Assembly: GCA_041675125.1 (NCBI GenBank) | Contig: JBAYUM010000001.1 | Span: forward strand, 1-60,967 | Source of the DNA: Candidatus Nanopelagicales bacterium | GTDB taxonomy: Bacteria > Actinomycetota > Actinomycetes > S36-B12 | Direction: 5' to 3' | Length of the DNA: 60,967 bases | Shown: positions 23,337 through 60,967 of the stretch, piece after piece | Layout: each line of letters starts with the position of its first letter | Position numbering within the stretch: the first letter of the stretch is position 1 | The notes under the pieces: generated by a model | What the model saw: the letters and a program-made list of their open reading frames with translations, nothing else | Database searches by the model: none | What the model was told of the DNA's origin: nothing | Translations under genes and position numbers: made by a program

Positions 23337-23453
23337 GCTGAAAGCCTATGACGCACCGACCAGATCCAGCCGATCCCACGATCCCCTGGAACCTGGAATG
23401 ACTCAGCGCCTGGCTTCTCCATGGCTGGTCATCGGTTAGGGCAGAATGGCCCA

Positions 23454-24122
23454 ATGCCCAGCCCCGTCGAGCCCATTCGCGTCTTCCTGCTTGATGACCA
23501 TGAAATCGTTCGCCGAGGTCTTGCTGATCTCATCAATCTCGAGTCCGATATGGAAGTGGTCGGCGAGGCCTCCTCGAAGGACGAGGCACTCCACCGGATC
23601 CCAGCCTCACGTCCGACAGTTGCCGTGCTCGATGTGCGGCTTCCCGACGGATCAGGTGTCGAGGTCTGCCGGGATATCCGATCCGACCTACCGGATGTCC
23701 GCTGCCTCATGCTCACCTCCTATGCAGACGATGAGGCGCTCTTCGACGCGATCATGGCTGGCGCCTCCGGCTATGTGCTGAAGGAGATTCGGGGAAACGA
23801 CCTCATGACGGCAATCCGCGAGGTGGCCGCAGGCAAGTCACTGCTCGATCCAGGCGCCACTCAAAGAGTCCTGGACCGGCTTCGCTCCGGCGACCAGCAG
23901 GATCAACGCCTTCAGGGCCTGTCAGATCAAGAGCACAGGATTCTGACCCTGATAGGCGACGGTCTCACCAACCGACAGATCGGCGAGACGATGCACCTTG
24001 CCGAGAAGACCGTCAAGAACTACGTCTCCAGCCTGCTGGCGAAACTTGGCATGGAACGACGAACCCAGGCCGCAGCGCTGGCCGCTCGCATGGCTGCCGA
24101 GCAGCACTCCAAGAACTCCTGA
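23454..24122 (+). CDS. Two-component response regulator, NarL/LuxR family (DosR/DevR-like)
   Basis: The receiver domain has [16 protein letters not shown] ... [11 protein letters not shown]. The C-terminal LuxR HTH is [47 protein letters not shown] 23454 gives the usual short N-terminus. The track start at 23421 is 11 codons upstream. Confidence 0.9.
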
Positions 24123-24142: not shown

Positions 24143-25867
<1,725 letters not shown>

Positions 25868-30411: not shown

Positions 30412-31815
30412 TCAGTATGCGAAGTAGAGCTGCTTGTCGGAAGAATCCTTGGCGTCCCCGAACGGATCCTCAGATGAGATCTCCGGGGGACCGGCCTTGA
30501 TCGCCTTGAGCATCAAGCGCACTTCGAATATCGCCAGCACTGCGTAGACCACGGTGAATCCGATGAACGAGATGAGCACCTCAGTCGACGTCACTGTCGG
30601 AGAGACTCCCTCGGCTGTCTTCTGCAGCCCGAACACAAGCCAGGGCTGGCGTCCCATCTCGGTGAAGATCCATCCGGCTGAGATGCCGAACAATGGCATC
30701 AGGGTGATACCTGCGGTGGTGAGGGCGAAGATCTTGCTCTTCGGATTTCTACCACCGCGGAAGCGCCACAAGGCCCAGACTGCATAGAGGGCAGCGAGCA
30801 TCCCGAGACCGATCATGAGGCGGAAGCCCCAGTAGGTGACCGGCACATATGGGCTGTAGTCACCAGGTCCGTACTGCTGCGTATAGGTCTCCTGCAGGTT
30901 GTTGATCCCCTGCACGGTGCCATCAAAGGATCCTGTCGCCAGGAAGGACATCAACCCGGGCACCTCGATGATGCGAGTAGCGGTGTCACCCGAGATATCG
31001 CCGATGCTCAGAATCGAGAATGGCGCGTTCGCCGTGGTCTGGTAGAGGCCTTCAGCAGCGGCCATCTTCATCGGCTGCTGCTCGACCATGATCTTGGCAT
31101 CAAGATCGCCAGTGACCGATACGACGACTGCTGCAATCAGGATCACCCACGAAGCCGCCTTCACAGCTGGGCGGAAGACGTCGACGTCGCGGCCTTTGGC
31201 CATGTGCCAGGCGCCGACCGCAGCGACAAAGGCCCCCGCAACCAGGAATGAGGCGAAGATCGTGTGCGTGAACGCGATGAGCGAGGTGTTCTGGAACAGC
31301 ACCGAGCCGATGTCGTTCAACACTGCTCGACCCGTCGTCGCACTGATCTCATACCCGGTTGGATGCTGCATCCACGAGTTCGCGGCAAGAATGAAGAACG
31401 CCGAGGAGAGCGTGCCGATGGCCGCCGCCCAGATCGTTGCGAGATGCAGTTTCTTCGGCAGTCGATCCCAGCCAAAGATCCATAGCCCCAGGAAGGTGGA
31501 TTCAAGGAAGAACGCCAGCAGTCCTTCCATCGCCAGTGGGGCACCGAAGACGTCACCCACGAACTTGGAATAGTCCGACCAGTTCATCCCGAATTGGAAC
31601 TCCTGGACGATTCCCGTCACCACGCCCATGGCGAAGTTGATCAGGAAGAGCTTTCCGAAGAACTTGGTCAGTCGCAGGTACTTCACGTTTCCAGTGCGCA
31701 CCCAAGCAGTCTGGAAACCGACCACGAACCACACCGTACCAAGAGTGAGCGGCACGAAGAAGAAGTGATAGACGGTGGTAACCGCGAATTGCCAACGGGC
31801 TAGGTCAAGATTCAT
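30412..31815 (-). CDS. cydA: Cytochrome bd oxidase subunit I
   Basis: 467-aa ORF with ARWQFAVTTVYHFFFVPLTLG, EFQFGMNWS and WMQHPTGY, which are canonical CydA blocks. Confidence 0.95.
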   Translation of the reverse strand: MNLDLARWQFAVTTVYHFFFVPLTLGTVWFVVGFQTAWVRTGNVKYLRLTKFFGKLFLINFAMGVVTGIVQEFQFGMNWSDYSKFVGDVFGAPLAMEGLLAFFLESTFLGLWIFGWDRLPKKLHLATIWAAAIGTLSSAFFILAANSWMQHPTGYEISATTGRAVLNDIGSVLFQNTSLIAFTHTIFASFLVAGAFVAAVGAWHMAKGRDVDVFRPAVKAASWVILIAAVVVSVTGDLDAKIMVEQQPMKMAAAEGLYQTTANAPFSILSIGDISGDTATRIIEVPGLMSFLATGSFDGTVQGINNLQETYTQQYGPGDYSPYVPVTYWGFRLMIGLGMLAALYAVWALWRFRGGRNPKSKIFALTTAGITLMPLFGISAGWIFTEMGRQPWLVFGLQKTAEGVSPTVTSTEVLISFIGFTVVYAVLAIFEVRLMLKAIKAGPPEISSEDPFGDAKDSSDKQLYFAY

Positions 31816-31885: not shown

Positions 31886-31899
31886 AGGACCAAAGTCCC
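31886..31899. promoter_or_regulatory. DosR/DevR-box-like inverted repeat AGGAC-CAAA-GTCCC in the cydA / PP2C divergent region
   Basis: Read directly. It matches 12 of 14 positions of the core GGGACTWWAGTCCC of the mycobacterial DosR consensus TTSGGGACTWWAGTCCCSAA. It lies 71 bp upstream of the cydA start and 61 bp upstream of the PP2C start. A DosR-type regulator gene is 8 kb away. Confidence 0.35.
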
Positions 31900-49144: not shown

Positions 49145-50080
49145 CTAGCCTGCGAACGGATCGCCTGGAATGTCCTCATCCGTGAAGAACATCGGAGCAC
49201 CCAGGGTGTCCTCGACGTTGCAGTGGATGAGGTTGTCACGCAGTCGTGTGGTGCGAACACCCTGCTTGTTCAGCCATGCCTCTGCCGAGTTGAGGTCCTT
49301 GACCTTCCAGCGCAGCGAGTAGATGCAGTTGCCCCACTTCTCGACATGGCGCCCAAGATCGGAATCCATCTCGAGGGGTTGAGCCAGCTGCAGCAGGCAG
49401 TCACCCAGGATCACGGTCTGGTACTTGCACTGCAGGTCCTCATCTATTCCATCAGCCAATGGAACTGCCTGCATGATGTCGACATAGGTTGCCACGGCCG
49501 AATCAAGATCCTTGACGCCGAGCGTGACGTAGTTGAATCGCTCGAAGGTCATCGGATGCTGTTCGTACAGGCGCATCAACTCCGTGTAGGTGTCCTGATC
49601 CTTGGGGTCGTTGCGCATATCGATCTTGCAGAGCTCGACCATCAGGCCTGCAGTGTCGCGAGGGCTCGGGTAGAAGTAGAGCGTCTCGGGATCGAGCTTC
49701 TCGATCTTGCCACCACCCGGAGCGCCGATGTACACGCCCTTCTCAAGCAGGCGATCTGCGAGACCGGCGAGGTCCTCGACCTTGTAGCCCACCGAGTGCA
49801 GGTGCTCACCGAACTTCGAGTAGAACTTGCCCACCGGCTTGTTCACGTCGACCGGGAAGTTGGGGGCCATGGTCTCGATGCAGACATCCGCAACCATGAG
49901 CAGGCTCGCCCAGCGGTCCTCCGGCGGCAGGTAGTTGAGTTCATCGATACCCATGTAGAGGTACCCACCCAGACCACGACGGTAGAACTCGTTCAACTTA
50001 TTCACATCGTCGGTCATATGCACGATATGAATCATGTTGCCGATGCCGTAGTCACCGGTTGTCTTGTATTGCCTTCTCAT
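49145..50080 (-). CDS. Two-domain VOC (glyoxalase/bleomycin-resistance/dioxygenase fold) protein, paralogue 1
   Basis: 311-aa ORF. It has repeated beta-alpha-beta-beta-beta-type modules with candidate metal ligands in NMIHIVHM, GEHLHSVGYKVEDL and GLMVELC. The second domain begins FNYVTLGVKDLDSA. Confidence 0.75.
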   Translation of the reverse strand: MRRQYKTTGDYGIGNMIHIVHMTDDVNKLNEFYRRGLGGYLYMGIDELNYLPPEDRWASLLMVADVCIETMAPNFPVDVNKPVGKFYSKFGEHLHSVGYKVEDLAGLADRLLEKGVYIGAPGGGKIEKLDPETLYFYPSPRDTAGLMVELCKIDMRNDPKDQDTYTELMRLYEQHPMTFERFNYVTLGVKDLDSAVATYVDIMQAVPLADGIDEDLQCKYQTVILGDCLLQLAQPLEMDSDLGRHVEKWGNCIYSLRWKVKDLNSAEAWLNKQGVRTTRLRDNLIHCNVEDTLGAPMFFTDEDIPGDPFAG

Positions 50081-50121: not shown

Positions 50122-51057
50122 TTACTCAGCGAACGGGTCGCCCGGAATGTCCTCAGTGGTGAAGAACATCGGCGCACCGAAAGTGTCCTCTTCATTCGCC
50201 TGCAGCAGGTTGTCGCGGAGTCGCTCCGTGCGCACACCCTGGCTGTTGAGCCAGGTGGCAGCTGCGTCGAGATCGCGTACCTTCCAGCGCAGGCTGTAGA
50301 TCATGTTGCCCCACTTGGCCACATGGCGACCCAGATGCGAATCCTCCTCGAGCGGCTGAGCCAACTGAAGCAGGCAGTCACCGAGGTGCAGGGTCATGTA
50401 CTTGCACTGCATGGCCTCATCGATGCCCTCTTGAAGCGGGATCGCCTGCATCGTGTCTACGTACGTCTGCACGGCACTGTCGAGGTCCTTGCAGCCAAGA
50501 GTCACGTACGAGAAGCGCTCGAAGGTCATGGGATGGAACTTCCACATGCGGAACAGTTCCGACCAAGTTGGCAGGTCCTTGGGGTCGCTCGGCATGTCGG
50601 TCTTGCAGAGCTCGACCATCAAGCCGGCAGTATCGCGGGGACTGGGATAGAAGTAGGCGGTGTCCTCCTCGAGCTTGTCGATCTTGCCGCCGCCAGGTCG
50701 GCCGATGTACACGCCCTTGGAGATCAGCCGGTCAGCGAGGCCTGCCAGATCATCGACCTTGTAGCCCACTGAGTGCAGGTGCTGGCCGAACTTCGAGTAG
50801 AACTTGCCCACGGGCTTGTTCACGTCCGGCGGCATATTCGGCGCCATGGTCTCGATGCACACGTCAGAGACCATCAGCAGGCTTGCCCAGCGATCCTCGA
50901 TCGGAAGATAGGTGGGTGCATCCGGGCCCATGAAGACGAATCCGCCGAAGACGCGTCGATAGAAGTTATTGAGCTCCTCCACATCGTCGGTCATGTGGAC
51001 GAAGTGGATCATGTTGCCGATGCCGTAGTCACCGGTCTTCTTGTACTGGCGCTGCAT
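50122..51057 (-). CDS. Two-domain VOC-fold protein, paralogue 2
   Basis: ATG 51057 (MQRQYKKTGDYGIGNMIHFVHM) lies 5 nt after GGAGG and gives exactly 311 aa, like the other two copies. The track ORF (to 51183) adds 42 unsupported codons. Confidence 0.75.
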   Translation of the reverse strand: MQRQYKKTGDYGIGNMIHFVHMTDDVEELNNFYRRVFGGFVFMGPDAPTYLPIEDRWASLLMVSDVCIETMAPNMPPDVNKPVGKFYSKFGQHLHSVGYKVDDLAGLADRLISKGVYIGRPGGGKIDKLEEDTAYFYPSPRDTAGLMVELCKTDMPSDPKDLPTWSELFRMWKFHPMTFERFSYVTLGCKDLDSAVQTYVDTMQAIPLQEGIDEAMQCKYMTLHLGDCLLQLAQPLEEDSHLGRHVAKWGNMIYSLRWKVRDLDAAATWLNSQGVRTERLRDNLLQANEEDTFGAPMFFTTEDIPGDPFAE

Positions 51058-51217
51058 GGAGGCCTCCATCGAAGATGCGTGCAAGTCCGAAGGCAAAGTT
51101 AGGCCTCTGCAGCAGCCAAGGAGGTCAAAACAGGGAAATATTCGGCGGAATTCGGATGAACCCGGCAACCCGTCGCGTTCCAACTGGCCACGACTACTAG
51201 TGACCTTTGCGGATATC

Positions 51218-51237
51218 GCAGGGACCTAGGTCCCTGC
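51218..51237. promoter_or_regulatory. Perfect 20-bp palindrome GCAGGGACCTAGGTCCCTGC (DosR-box-like core GGGAC-N4-GTCCC)
   Basis: Read directly and checked to be self-complementary over all 20 nt. It lies in the 263-bp divergent region between VOC paralogue 2 (start 51057) and the amidohydrolase (start 51321). Confidence 0.45.
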
Positions 51238-51320
51238 CAGTTCCCAGATCACAGTTCCACTCTGAGTCCACGAGTACTCGCCGCACTCGCGCCGAGACCG
51301 TATCAATGGCTGGAGGAAAT

Positions 51321-52550
51321 ATGACACATTCGGCAATGGATGCCCAACAAGTGGAATCCATCATGGGCGGGCTCACCATCATCGACGGTGACAGTCACTT
51401 CGCTGAGCCGGCTGATCTTTGGACCTCTCGGGCACCAGCCAAGTACAAGGACCGCGTGCCGCAGTTGGGCGTGGTCGATGGAACGACGTGCTGGATGCTC
51501 GAGGGCAACTACTGGACAGGCCTCGGTGGTCACACGATCGCCAAGGGACAAACCAAGACACTCGGCGTGTTGAGCCTGCCGTACGAGGAGATCGACGACT
51601 CGGCATGGTCAGTTCCAGGTCGTCTGGAGCTCATGGACAAGCAGGGCGTCTACGCGGCGGTGCTGTATCCCAACTCCATCGGATTCGCATCGAATGCGGT
51701 CATGGGCATTCAGGATATCGAGTTCCGCAACATCGTCAGCAGCATCTACAACGACGGCATGGTCGATTTTCAGCACGAGTCAGGAAACCGCCTGCTCCCG
51801 CAGTGCATTCTCCCCATTTGGGATATGGACCTGACCGTCAAGGAGATGGCGCGACTGCATGATCAGGGCATCCGTGGTTTCACGGTGACTGACAAGCCGC
51901 AGATGGTGGGGCTCCCCGACCTTGACTCGCCCTATTTCGCTCCGATGTGGGCCTTGGCAAATGAGCAAGGTGCGGTCATCAACTTCCATATCGGCAGCGG
52001 CCTTCCGCCAAGCACTGGTGAGGCCTCACGTACGAACACGGTCGTCTCAGGGGCGAACTCCGACATCTACTGGCAGTCATTCGGTCCTCAGCGCCGCCTT
52101 GCAGTCCTTGCAACGCAGTTCTACATGTCGAATGTCCGAGTGATCACGAACCTGATCATGAGCAACATGTTCGATCGCTATCCCAACCTCAAGATCGTGT
52201 CTGCCGAAAGCGGCATCGGATGGGTGCCCTTCGTGCTGGAAGCATGTGAGTACCAACTCGACGAGATGGTGACGACGAAGGACGAGAGGGGTTTCCAGAA
52301 GCTCCGTCCCACCGAGTACTTCCGCAACCACATCTACGTGATGAGCTGGTTCGAGAAGTCAGCGATGAAGGTGCTCGACGATGTCGGCGTCGACAACGTC
52401 ATGCTCATGACTGACATCCCGCACCCCACCTGCTTGTACCCCAACTCCCGTGAGTACTTCGCAGAGGTGACCAAGGACCTTGCACCTGATGTCCGCCGCA
52501 AGTTGGTGCAGGATAACGCAGCGCGGGTTTACGGAATCACCATTCCATAG
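51321..52550 (+). CDS. Amidohydrolase_2 (ACMSD/LigW/LigI-type metal-dependent hydrolase/decarboxylase) family protein
   Basis: IIDGDSHFAEP (N-terminal metal ligands), INFHIGSG and LMTDIPHP (C-terminal Asp/His block). Start ATG 51321 follows GGAGG (51312-51316). ATG 51306 is possible. The track start at 51207 is unlikely. Confidence 0.8.
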   Translation: MTHSAMDAQQVESIMGGLTIIDGDSHFAEPADLWTSRAPAKYKDRVPQLGVVDGTTCWMLEGNYWTGLGGHTIAKGQTKTLGVLSLPYEEIDDSAWSVPGRLELMDKQGVYAAVLYPNSIGFASNAVMGIQDIEFRNIVSSIYNDGMVDFQHESGNRLLPQCILPIWDMDLTVKEMARLHDQGIRGFTVTDKPQMVGLPDLDSPYFAPMWALANEQGAVINFHIGSGLPPSTGEASRTNTVVSGANSDIYWQSFGPQRRLAVLATQFYMSNVRVITNLIMSNMFDRYPNLKIVSAESGIGWVPFVLEACEYQLDEMVTTKDERGFQKLRPTEYFRNHIYVMSWFEKSAMKVLDDVGVDNVMLMTDIPHPTCLYPNSREYFAEVTKDLAPDVRRKLVQDNAARVYGITIP

Positions 52551-59894: not shown

Positions 59895-60967
59895 GTGGAC
59901 ATCAACGACATGATCTTGCTCAGCATCGATGATCACATCATCGAGGCGCCAACGACGTTCGACAAGCACATGCCAGCCAAGTACAAGGACCAGGCTCCCA
60001 GGCTCGTTGCCGATCCTGACAACCCAGCGATCGATCGTTGGGAGTTCCAGGGGACTGCAGCGTTCACCGGCGGGCTGGGAGCTGTTGTCTCGTGGCCCAA
60101 GGAAGAGTGGGGCTTCGAGCCAACCGGCCTCGCCGAGATGCGGCCGGGCACATACGACATTCACGAGCGAGTGCGCGACATGAACGTCAACGGCGTGCTG
60201 GCCGGCATGAACTTTCCGACCTTCCCCGGCTTCGCCGGCACGCACCTTGCGAACATGCCTGACAAGCAGCTGGCTCTTGCGGCGATCCAGGCCTACAACG
60301 ACTTCCTGATGGATGAGCTTGTCGGCTCATACCCGGGTCGCTTCATTCCGATGGGCATCATCCCGTTCTTCGACATCGAGGAGTCGGTCAAGGAGATCCA
60401 TCGTCTTGCAAAGAAGGGCTGCGTATCCATCACGATGCCCGAGACTCCCTACGGCATCGGTCAGCCTGACTTTGCGACCGGTCACTGGGATCCAGTGTTC
60501 AAGGCACTCGTCGACACCAACATGGTCGCCAGCATGCACATCGGTGGTGGCTTCGGCCTGATCCAGCGCCCGCCGTCAGCCCTGGTCGACGACATCGTGA
60601 TCATCGCCGCTCTGGTGTCCACGATCGCAGCGACGGACATCCTGACCAGCGGTGTCATCAAGAGATTCCCTGACATCAAGTTCGCGATGAGCGAGGGCGG
60701 CCTGGGCTGGATCCCGTTCCTGCTCGACCGGATGGACCGCCACATGGTCAACCACTCCTGGACGCACCTGGACTCACTGCCCAAGGGAATGTCGCCAACT
60801 GAGGTCTGGAAGAAGAACTTCCTCGCCTGCTTCATCACCGAACCCACGGCGCTGCGCACGCGCGATCGCTACGGTGTTGAGACCATCGCCTGGGAATGCG
60901 ACTACCCGCACTCCGACTGCACCTGGCCGTACTCGCCAGAGCTCCTGCTCAAGGAACTAAATGCGGC
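59895..60967 (+). CDS. Amidohydrolase_2 family protein, second copy; C-terminus outside the window
   Basis: The frame is open from GTG 59895 (AGGAAAGGAA upstream; ATG 59910 is an alternative) to the window edge, so it is absent from the ORF track. It has LSIDDHIIEAP, MHIGGG and ECDYPHSD metal-site blocks. It is a paralogue class of 51321-52550. Confidence 0.8.
   Translation, partial: MDINDMILLSIDDHIIEAPTTFDKHMPAKYKDQAPRLVADPDNPAIDRWEFQGTAAFTGGLGAVVSWPKEEWGFEPTGLAEMRPGTYDIHERVRDMNVNGVLAGMNFPTFPGFAGTHLANMPDKQLALAAIQAYNDFLMDELVGSYPGRFIPMGIIPFFDIEESVKEIHRLAKKGCVSITMPETPYGIGQPDFATGHWDPVFKALVDTNMVASMHIGGGFGLIQRPPSALVDDIVIIAALVSTIAATDILTSGVIKRFPDIKFAMSEGGLGWIPFLLDRMDRHMVNHSWTHLDSLPKGMSPTEVWKKNFLACFITEPTALRTRDRYGVETIAWECDYPHSDCTWPYSPELLLKELNA

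What the first reader, a model, noticed from the sequence alone, without database searches (positions are those of the whole stretch)
51218..51237. Perfect 20-bp palindrome GCAGGGACCTAGGTCCCTGC between a VOC paralogue and an amidohydrolase shares the GGGAC-N4-GTCCC core with the cydA site
A 20-nt perfectly self-complementary sequence is very unlikely by chance in a 263-bp intergenic region. Its core GGGAC-CTAG-GTCCC has the same half-sites and spacing as the DosR-type box at 31886-31899. It is centred between two divergent catabolic genes. Either the DosR-type regulator of this window also controls part of the catabolic island, linking oxygen/redox sensing to this oxygen-related VOC chemistry, or a different dimeric regulator uses a similar operator. 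No regulator gene lies directly next to the palindrome.
Basis: partly seen in the sequence, partly recalled or inferred. Interest (0 to 1): 0.6.

Follow-up and report, generated by a model that had tools for sequence, protein, structure and literature searches.

The report
DosR operator upstream of oxygenase-like gene
The perfect 20-bp palindrome is most likely a binding site for the window's own DosR/DevR-type oxygen-sensing regulator, placed 100 bp upstream of a gene annotated as an amidohydrolase that is most similar to di-iron oxygenases; this suggests that an uncultured freshwater actinobacterium links oxygen sensing to oxygen-dependent catabolism.

Summary
The palindrome GCAGGGACCTAGGTCCCTGC is present at 51218-51237 and is perfect. 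It lies in the 263-bp gap between a VOC gene and a PF04909 gene, 100 bp before the PF04909 start.

- **Regulator.** The window encodes a true DevR/DosR orthologue with an identical recognition helix, and a DosS/DosT-type haem-GAF kinase.
- **Motif.** GGGAC-YWWR-GTCCC occurs 5 times in this 2.17-Mb assembly against 0.05 expected, always outside likely coding sequence.
- **Co-occurrence.** Across 201 genomes of the order, the motif is enriched only where a DosR orthologue is found (136 boxes against 20 controls, versus 14 against 24).
- **Targets.** Order-wide it sits upstream of cydA, PFL-like, USP and arginine deiminase genes.
- **This genus.** It also sits 75-105 bp upstream of several PF04909 paralogues. 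Most of these carry the full motifs of amidohydrolase-related dinuclear oxygenases, including DitZ-like genes.
- **Orthologues.** Six of seven usable orthologues of the window gene keep an 8-10/10 box at about -77 to -114, despite different neighbours. One 95%-identical orthologue keeps only 7/10.

This is a new member of a known kind, with an unreported regulon content. Binding, transcription start and the sign of regulation are untested, and a few genomes have boxes but no detected DosRS. Earlier scan notes reported DosR boxes at cydA in other genomes.

The parts
51218..51237 (.). Primary DevR/DosR-type box: a perfect 20-bp palindrome with core GGGAC-CTAG-GTCCC at 51221-51234
   Evidence: Each half carries G4G5G6A7C8, the bases contacted by the DevR C-terminal dimer (PMC3177182). 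It also fits the OsdR consensus AGGGCC-N4-GGCCCT (PMC5069765), differing at the position where this box has A/T.
51200..51213 (.). Possible weak secondary site: a GTGAC half-site exactly 21 bp upstream of the primary core
   Evidence: It scores only 5/10, and 12% of window positions score that well. However, the same GTGAC/ATGAC half-site lies at the same 21-bp offset in four DitZ-like promoters. Secondary box-like sequence is enriched about 5-fold at +/-21-23 bp across 73 boxes. In M. tuberculosis tgs1, the P and S boxes are 21 bp apart. Inconclusive.
51321..52550 (+). PF04909 gene downstream of the box: an ARO-like protein of 409 aa with D-S-H at residues 24-26 and D-I-P-H-P-T at residues 365-370
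   Evidence: Pfam Amidohydro_2. The best solved relatives are DitZ (E 2.8e-28) and PtmU3 (E 5e-23).
50122..51057 (-). Divergent VOC-fold gene (311 aa), first of a tandem VOC pair (the second is 49145-50080); a possible second target of the box
   Evidence: Pfam Glyoxalase/Glyoxalase_4. The box centre is 170 bp from its ATG. Orthologous loci do not keep this neighbour.
23421..24122 (+). DevR/DosR orthologue (receiver domain plus GerE/LuxR helix-turn-helix), the proposed binder
   Evidence: domains. E 5.3e-78 to M. tuberculosis DevR (3c3w), with the helix [11 protein letters not shown] identical, including the K179, K182 and N183 equivalents. It is the only such protein in the assembly.
24143..25849 (-). 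DosS/DosT-type sensor kinase (GAF-GAF-HisKA_3-HATPase), probably the last gene of the cydABDC operon
   Evidence: GAF-A domain E 5.6e-55 to DosT (2vzw), with the HPPM haem-histidine context conserved.
31886..31899 (.). 9/10 Dev-type box (AGGACCAAAGTCCC) 71 bp upstream of cydA (30412-31815, minus strand)
   Evidence: Perfect boxes lie at the same place upstream of cydA in two same-genus genomes and in many genomes of the order.

Best explanation
The palindrome is most likely the primary operator (a 'Dev box') for the DevR/DosR-type response regulator encoded 27 kb away at 23421-24122.

Proposed mechanism:
1. The haem-GAF kinase (24143-25849) senses low O2, or NO or CO, and phosphorylates the regulator. 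This step is inferred from orthology.
2. A regulator dimer binds the two GGGAC half-sites. This is inferred from the identical recognition helix and the comparative evidence.
3. Binding changes transcription of the PF04909 gene at 51321-52550, and possibly of the divergent VOC pair.

Activation is the more likely sign, by analogy with DevR class I promoters. If the weak -10-like CACTCT at 51258-51263 is used, the box centre falls at about -42.5. That is a post-hoc inference.

In this genus the same box sits upstream of cydABDC and of several PF04909 paralogues. Most of these paralogues carry the full motifs of amidohydrolase-related dinuclear (di-iron) oxygenases. The likely logic is therefore to co-regulate O2-consuming catabolic oxygenases and the high-affinity oxidase according to oxygen supply.
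For: - **Sequence match.** Both halves carry G4G5G6A7C8 with the DevR spacing.
- **Cognate system present.** The DevR orthologue has an identical recognition helix. The kinase is DosT/DevS-like. No other protein in the assembly has this helix.
- **Enrichment in this genome.** GGGACYWWRGTCCC occurs 5 times against 0.05 expected, always outside likely coding sequence.
- **Co-occurrence in the order.** In 88 genomes with a DosR orthologue there are 136 boxes against 20 controls. In 113 genomes without one there are 14 against 24. Boxes often lie 5-35 kb from dosR.
- **Order-wide targets.** cydA, PFL-like, tandem USP, arginine deiminase and NrfD/4Fe-4S genes.
- **This genus.** Boxes lie 75-105 bp upstream of PF04909 paralogues from four subfamilies in G000, G001, G002, G008 and G009. 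In G000, 5 of 11 such genes have a box against 20 of 1876 other genes.
- **Orthologues.** They keep a box at about -77 to -114, in different neighbourhoods: 9/10 in G008, L021 and L103; 8/10 in G012/L020/L101 and L022.
- **G008 and G002.** Each has its own dosR-dosS pair, with the same helix and a 9/10 box upstream of dosR.
Against: - No binding or expression data exist.
- No sigma-70-like promoter was found.
- The tandem secondary site that marks M. tuberculosis DevR promoters is only a 5/10 half-site here.
- The closest orthologue (95% identical, same metagenome) has only a 7/10 box.
- G001 and G052 carry boxes (upstream of a ditZ-like gene and of cydA, respectively), but no DosR or DosS orthologue was found in their assemblies, which are 95-96% complete.
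- There is no box upstream of dosR itself in this window.
- The related genomes are not statistically independent.
Confidence: 0.72

Rival explanations
1. A different dimeric regulator, for example a genus-specific one, recognises a GGGAC-N4-GTCCC-like operator upstream of the PF04909 genes. On this view the resemblance to the DosR box is convergent or shared.
For: - PF04909-associated boxes were seen only in this genus.
- A genus-restricted MarR-like gene carries a box in G000 and G001.
- G001 and G052 have boxes without a detected DosRS pair.
Against: - The MarR orthologues share a different self-palindrome, GTTGC-N5-GCAAC, at their start codon. Ten of 12 have no Dev-type box.
- The boxes upstream of PF04909 genes have the same core and spacer class as the cydA boxes in the same genomes.
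- Enrichment of the box tracks the presence of the DosR orthologue.
- No second protein with a DevR-like recognition helix exists in the assembly.
Confidence: 0.13
2. The palindrome acts at the RNA level, as a stable stem-loop in the 5' leader of the PF04909 transcript or of the VOC transcript, affecting stability or processing.
For: As RNA it folds into an 8-bp stem with a 4-nt loop. The 40-nt context folds at -21.1 kcal/mol, z = -4.2 against shuffles. The transcription start is unknown.
Against: - The same pentamers recur with invariant sequence rather than covarying pairs, upstream of unrelated genes in many genomes.
- Orthologous sites are imperfect palindromes that would fold weakly.
- There is no U-tract, and the site lies between divergent genes, so it is not a terminator.
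Confidence: 0.05
3. The palindrome is a chance or relic sequence with no present function.
For: About 20 perfect palindromes of 20 bp or more exist in the genome. The closest orthologue has a degraded 7/10 version.
Against: - The YWWR-spacer box is expected 0.05 times per genome.
- The site lies at a conserved distance upstream of orthologues: four promoters score 9/10 or better, where the chance is about 8e-5 per position.
- The cognate regulator is present.
Confidence: 0.07

Closest known systems
M. tuberculosis DevR/DosR 'Dev boxes' (class I promoters such as tgs1-Rv3131; Chauhan et al. 2011, PMC3177182)
   Same: - A 20-bp palindromic site with G4G5G6A7C8 in each half.
- A cognate NarL-family regulator with an identical recognition helix, paired with a haem-GAF kinase.
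- Distance from the start codon within the reported range of 17-221 bp.
- A divergent-promoter setting.
- A possible secondary site 21 bp away, as with tgs1 P and S at -42.5 and -63.5.
   Different: - Position 9 is C, not T (spacer CTAG). The flanks are A/T where the M. tuberculosis consensus, as I recall it, has S.
- The secondary site is at best a half-site.
- The target is a PF04909 oxygenase-like catabolic gene, a class I did not find reported in DevR regulons.
- Binding has not been shown.
Streptomyces coelicolor OsdR/OsdK (Urem et al. 2016, PMC5069765)
   Same: This is a DevR orthologue outside mycobacteria that binds a 16-nt palindrome, AGGGCC-N4-GGCCCT, at positions such as -81 and -100. 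Many of its sites lie near its own gene. The window's box reads AGGGAC-CTAG-GTCCCT.
   Different: The half-site is GGGCC rather than GGGAC. The regulon covers stress and development genes, not PF04909 genes.
DosR boxes upstream of cydABDC noted earlier in this scan in other actinomycete genomes (e1-4774294, e1-2190717, e1-3026038)
   Same: The same motif and the same dosS-cydDC neighbourhood. I found this independently here for the window, for two same-genus genomes and for many genomes of the order.
   Different: Those notes concern cydA only. The site examined here is upstream of a PF04909 gene.
Amidohydrolase-related dinuclear oxygenases (AROs: DitZ, PtmU3, SfbO, AibH2; Liu et al. 2026, PMC13154177) - applies to the downstream gene, not the palindrome
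   Same: PF04909 fold, N-terminal D-x-H (D-S-H, as in PtmU3), and D-x-P-H in the C-terminal loop. The best solved relatives are DitZ and PtmU3. The box-bearing paralogues on contig C14 give E 2.7e-193 against DitZ over its full length.
   Different: The window protein and all its orthologues have D-I-P-H-P-T. The final D/E of the defining motif is replaced by Thr. No activity data exist.

Membership tests
DevR/DosR operator (Dev box) | Inverted repeat with G4G5G6A7C8 in each half of a 20-bp palindrome (GGGAC-N4-GTCCC) | tested here: met
   One search shows 10/10 core positions. The motif definition is from PMC3177182.
DevR/DosR operator (Dev box) | T at position 9 of each half (consensus GGGACT...AGTCCC) | tested here: not met
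   The spacer is CTAG, so position 9 is C. C or T at this position is common among the order-wide boxes.
DevR/DosR operator (Dev box) | A cognate DevR-family regulator with conserved DNA-contact residues, plus a DosS/DosT-type kinase, in the same genome | tested here: met
DevR/DosR operator (Dev box) | At least two boxes in tandem and in helical phase | tested here: inconclusive
   There is only a GTGAC half-site (5/10) 21 bp upstream. The same offset is seen in paralogous promoters, and box-like sequence is enriched at +/-21-23 bp across 73 boxes.
DevR/DosR operator (Dev box) | The motif is over-represented upstream of genes, and only where the regulator exists | tested here: met
   Exceptions are G001 and G052.
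DevR/DosR operator (Dev box) | Proximal box next to or overlapping the -35 region (about -42.5 from the transcription start) | not testable with these tools
DevR/DosR operator (Dev box) | Binding by the phosphorylated regulator and hypoxia-dependent expression | not testable with these tools
   This needs EMSA or footprinting, and a reporter or RNA measurement.
Amidohydrolase-related dinuclear oxygenases (downstream gene) | PF04909 fold with an N-terminal D-x-H | tested here: met
   fold; DSH at residues 24-26.
Amidohydrolase-related dinuclear oxygenases (downstream gene) | C-terminal D-x-P-H-x-D/E motif (PMC13154177) | tested here: not met
   The motif is DIPHPT in the window protein, in its C10 paralogue and in all orthologues. 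The other box-bearing paralogue groups with complete sequence have DYPHSD.
Dispersed repeat (REP/MITE-like) | Many copies with conserved flanks | tested here: not met
   The 20-mer is unique, and no copy is found with up to 3 mismatches. Flanks of the box sites are unrelated except in tandem gene duplicates.
Intrinsic terminator | GC-rich hairpin followed by a T-run, downstream of a gene | tested here: not met
   One search found none. The site lies between the 5' ends of two divergent genes.

The most novel reading that the evidence does not exclude
In this uncultured freshwater actinobacterial genus, the DosRS gas-sensing system may have recruited a whole family of PF04909 dinuclear-iron oxygenase genes into its regulon, alongside cytochrome bd. 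These genes include DitZ-like diterpenoid hydroxylases, PtmU3-like members and the DIPHPT variant found here. Oxygen availability would then directly set the level of O2-dependent enzymes for alicyclic or terpenoid carbon catabolism. Related genera show boxes upstream of Rieske and extradiol oxygenases, which hints at a wider DosR-oxygenase link.
Probability: 0.5. Interest if true: 0.55.

Novelty: new member of a known kind. Interest (0 to 1): 0.42.

Why it matters
DosR/DevR is studied almost only as the dormancy switch of M. tuberculosis. Here the same switch, in small-genome freshwater Actinomycetota, appears to govern the high-affinity oxidase and also a set of recently recognised 'misannotated amidohydrolase' oxygenases.

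If this is confirmed:
- It would give a physiological context (oxygen limitation) for a largely uncharacterised enzyme superfamily.
- It would give a simple sequence marker, the box, for finding oxygen-regulated catabolic genes in metagenomes.
- It would be an example of regulon rewiring within a single genus.

It would not change what is known about how DosR works.

Tried and rejected
- **MarR-like protein (contig C3:34779-35276) as the binder: rejected.** Its 12 orthologues share another palindrome, GTTGC-N5-GCAAC, at the start codon. Only G000 and G001 have a Dev-type box.
- **Dispersed repeat: rejected**.
- **Terminator: rejected**.
- **The longer ORF from TTG 51207, which would place the palindrome in coding sequence: rejected.** Homology to orthologues and to DitZ/PtmU3 starts after ATG 51321, which has a GGAGGA Shine-Dalgarno.
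- **Sigma-70 consensus scan of the gap:** nothing found.
- **Scoring the site with a matrix of footprinted M. tuberculosis boxes:** the paper's supplementary tables are not held.
- **Autoregulatory box upstream of dosR in this window:** none found.
- **Literature searches for DosR control of oxygenases or AROs:** nothing relevant in the library.

Full report
**Observation.** The sequence GCAGGGACCTAGGTCCCTGC lies at 51218-51237 and is perfectly self-complementary.
- It sits in the 263-bp gap between a 311-aa VOC-fold gene (50122-51057, minus strand) and a PF04909 gene whose real start is the ATG at 51321, preceded by GGAGGA.
- The box core starts 100 bp before that ATG, and its centre is 170 bp from the VOC ATG. 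It is therefore not centred in the gap.
- The cydA site at 31886-31899 is AGGACCAAAGTCCC, a 9/10 match.
- The 20-mer is unique in the assembly (G000: 2.17 Mb, 245 contigs, 63% G+C, 92.6% complete).

**Is it more than chance?**
- Palindromy alone is only moderately rare: 0.125 perfect palindromes of 20 bp or more are expected per window, 2 are seen, and about 20 occur in the genome.
- The bare core GGGAC-N4-GTCCC is not enriched (5 seen, 4.1 +/- 1.7 expected).
- All five cores have a Y-W-W-R spacer (0.05 expected).
- All five lie outside likely coding sequence, which covers about 86% of the assembly.

**The regulator.**
- The gene at 23421-24122 has a receiver domain plus a GerE helix-turn-helix. 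It matches M. tuberculosis DevR at E 5.3e-78, and the recognition helix [11 protein letters not shown] is identical. By the 3c3w numbering this includes K179, K182 and N183, which from my knowledge of the DevR-DNA structure are the base-contacting residues.
- The convergent gene at 24143-25849 is a GAF-GAF-HisKA_3 kinase. Its first GAF domain matches DosT at E 5.6e-55 and keeps the HPPM histidine context. It follows cydA, cydB and two further genes that I take to be cydDC, all on the same strand.
- No other protein in the assembly has this recognition helix.
- According to PMC3177182, a DevR C-terminal dimer contacts G4G5G6A7C8T9 in each half of the palindrome. The window site has G4-C8 in both halves and C at position 9.
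- It also fits the S. coelicolor OsdR consensus AGGGCC-N4-GGCCCT (PMC5069765), differing at the position where this box has A/T.

**Comparative test across the order.** Record titles of relatives point to freshwater Actinomycetota MAGs, one of them labelled Candidatus Nanopelagicales.
- In 201 genomes of the order, GGGACYWWRGTCCC occurs 150 times, against 44 for the reversed control pattern.
- A DosR orthologue (E below 1e-70) was found in 88 genomes. These hold 136 boxes against 20 controls. The other 113 genomes hold 14 boxes against 24 controls.
- Boxes are often 5-35 kb from dosR on the same contig.
- I fetched 60 box loci. The genes downstream are repeatedly cydA, PFL-like, tandem USP, arginine deiminase, NrfD/4Fe-4S, NDH-2/SQR-like and an ABC ATPase. 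A few are Rieske oxygenases and a catechol-dioxygenase-like VOC.
- This is a recognisable DosR-type hypoxia regulon. Related genomes are not independent samples, so the Fisher value overstates significance.

**What is special in this genus.**
- In G000 the boxes lie upstream of the following:
  - the window PF04909 gene;
  - two tandem PF04909 genes on contig C14 (identical 20-mers);
  - a MarR-like gene;
  - a FlgN-family gene.
- One-mismatch boxes lie upstream of two more PF04909 genes (C8, C163) and of cydA.
- In same-genus genomes, perfect boxes lie 65-105 bp upstream of PF04909 paralogues in G001, G002, G008 (three) and G009. They lie upstream of cydA in G009 and G012.
- In G000, 5 of 11 PF04909 genes have a box with at most one mismatch, against 20 of 1876 other genes. 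At least three independent promoter lineages are involved.
- G008 and G002 have their own dosR-dosS pair, with the same helix and a 9/10 box upstream of dosR.

**Orthologous promoters.** Orthologues of the window gene keep a box-like sequence at a similar distance.

| Orthologue (amino-acid identity) | Box score | Position |
|---|---|---|
| G008 (88%) | 9/10 | -104 |
| G012/L020/L101 (88%) | 8/10 | -102 |
| L021 (77%) | 9/10 | -114 |
| L103 (76%) | 9/10 | about -86 |
| L022 (73%) | 8/10 | -77 |

- Background frequencies per position are 6e-4 for 8/10 or better and 8e-5 for 9/10 or better.
- The neighbouring genes differ between these loci, so the box goes with the PF04909 gene and not with the VOC genes.
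- A 95%-identical orthologue from the same metagenome has only 7/10.
- The 70%-identical paralogue clade (contig C10 type) has no box, and instead has a conserved TTGCTAGGTTC.

**What the downstream gene is.**
- Its best solved relatives are DitZ (E 2.8e-28) and PtmU3 (E 5e-23). Both are di-iron members of the amidohydrolase-related dinuclear oxygenases (AROs) (PMC13154177).
- The defining motifs of AROs are an N-terminal D-x-H and a C-terminal D-x-P-H-x-D/E.
- The C14 paralogues match DitZ at E 2.7e-193 and have DDH and DYPHSD.
- Two further paralogues (contig C36 and C14:16629), which have no box themselves but belong to the same group as the truncated box-bearing C8/C163 genes, have DSH and DYPH(W/L)E.
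- The window protein and all its orthologues have DSH and DIPHPT, so the last motif position is not met. I therefore call it ARO-like, not an ARO.

**Architecture.**
- In M. tuberculosis, tandem boxes in helical phase are a hallmark. In tgs1 the P and S boxes are centred at -42.5 and -63.5.
- Here a GTGAC half-site lies exactly 21 bp upstream of the core (51200-51204). The same half-site at the same offset occurs in four DitZ-like promoters.
- Across 73 boxes, secondary box-like sequence is enriched about 5-fold at +/-21-23 bp.
- In the window the secondary site scores only 5/10, which 12% of positions reach. This is inconclusive.
- No consensus promoter was found. A weak xAxxxT hexamer (CACTCT, 51258-51263) would place the box centre near -42.5. 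That is a post-hoc reading.

**Rivals.**
- The MarR-like protein is unlikely to be the binder.
- An RNA hairpin is energetically possible. However, it does not explain invariant pentamers upstream of unrelated genes.
- A chance or relic origin is unlikely, given the enrichment and the positional conservation.
- The main open problem is boxes in G001 and G052, where no DosR or DosS orthologue was found. This could reflect assembly gaps or another binder.

**Known or new?**
- The motif, the regulator and the mechanism are known. The cydA link was already noted in this scan on other genomes.
- A DosR-type box upstream of ARO-family genes was not found in the literature library.
- Verdict: a new member of a known kind, of moderate interest.

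**Limits.** There are no binding or expression data and no transcription start. My gene calls are crude ORF/GC3 calls made in scripts.

Noticed in passing
G000 contig C3:34779-35330; loci L085-L096: All 12 genus orthologues of a MarR-like gene share TAAGATAGTTGC-ATG-nnGCAACCAAC. This is a GTTGC-N5-GCAAC palindrome straddling the start codon, with a TAnnnT hexamer 6 nt upstream, which suggests a leaderless, self-repressed gene. Only G000 (perfect) and G001 (9/10) add a Dev-type box at about -55.
   Followed up: partly
G000 contig C14:19534-22744; window 59895-60965: A tandem array of at least three DitZ-like ARO genes (E 2.7e-193 to RrDitZ, PDB 8UYR). The two complete copies each have their own promoter, which contains a Dev box, a GTGAC half-site 21 bp upstream, CA(G/C)ATT about 25 nt downstream, and a conserved TATCGAAAG...CGGTAA block. 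A further DitZ-like gene with no box runs off the right end of the window.
   Followed up: partly
G000 contig C10:15335-15560; loci L104-L108: The 70%-identical paralogue clade of the window protein has no Dev box. It has a conserved TTGCTAGGTTC about 130-150 bp upstream, probably the operator of a different regulator.
   Followed up: no
G000 contig C58:2277-2296: A near-consensus box, GAAGGGACTTTAGTCCCTTT, lies about 119 bp upstream of a FlgN-family gene (Pfam E 4e-19). A link between a DosR-type box and a flagellar chaperone gene is unexpected.
   Followed up: no
Loci L061, L065, L066 and L054 (genomes G107, G189, G195, G032): In other genera of the order, perfect boxes lie 108-165 bp upstream of Rieske oxygenase alpha subunits (LigXa-like and ring-hydroxylating types) and of a catechol-2,3-dioxygenase-like VOC. 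This hints that DosR-type control of O2-dependent catabolic oxygenases is wider than this genus.
   Followed up: partly
Genomes G052, G001 and G004: No DosR or DosS orthologue was found in these assemblies (95%, 96% and 89% complete). Yet G052 has three perfect boxes, one of them upstream of cydA, and G001 has one upstream of a ditZ-like gene.
   Followed up: partly
window 30412-31815 to 24143-25849 (minus strand): The DosS/DosT-like kinase gene follows cydA, cydB and two further genes on the same strand, behind the 9/10 box. The kinase may therefore be induced together with cytochrome bd, while dosR itself (convergent, 23421-24122) has no box upstream.
   Followed up: partly
locus L099 (metagenome contig Ga0172380_10038644): The source metagenome holds a second, 95%-identical orthologue of the window protein whose upstream box is degraded to AGGTCCAAGGTCAC (7/10). 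This is possible natural variation in DosR control between co-occurring strains.
   Followed up: no
G000 contig C36:12008-12051: A 44-bp perfect palindrome lies directly after the 3' end of another ARO paralogue (C36:12069-13229, minus strand). It is probably a terminator hairpin.
   Followed up: no
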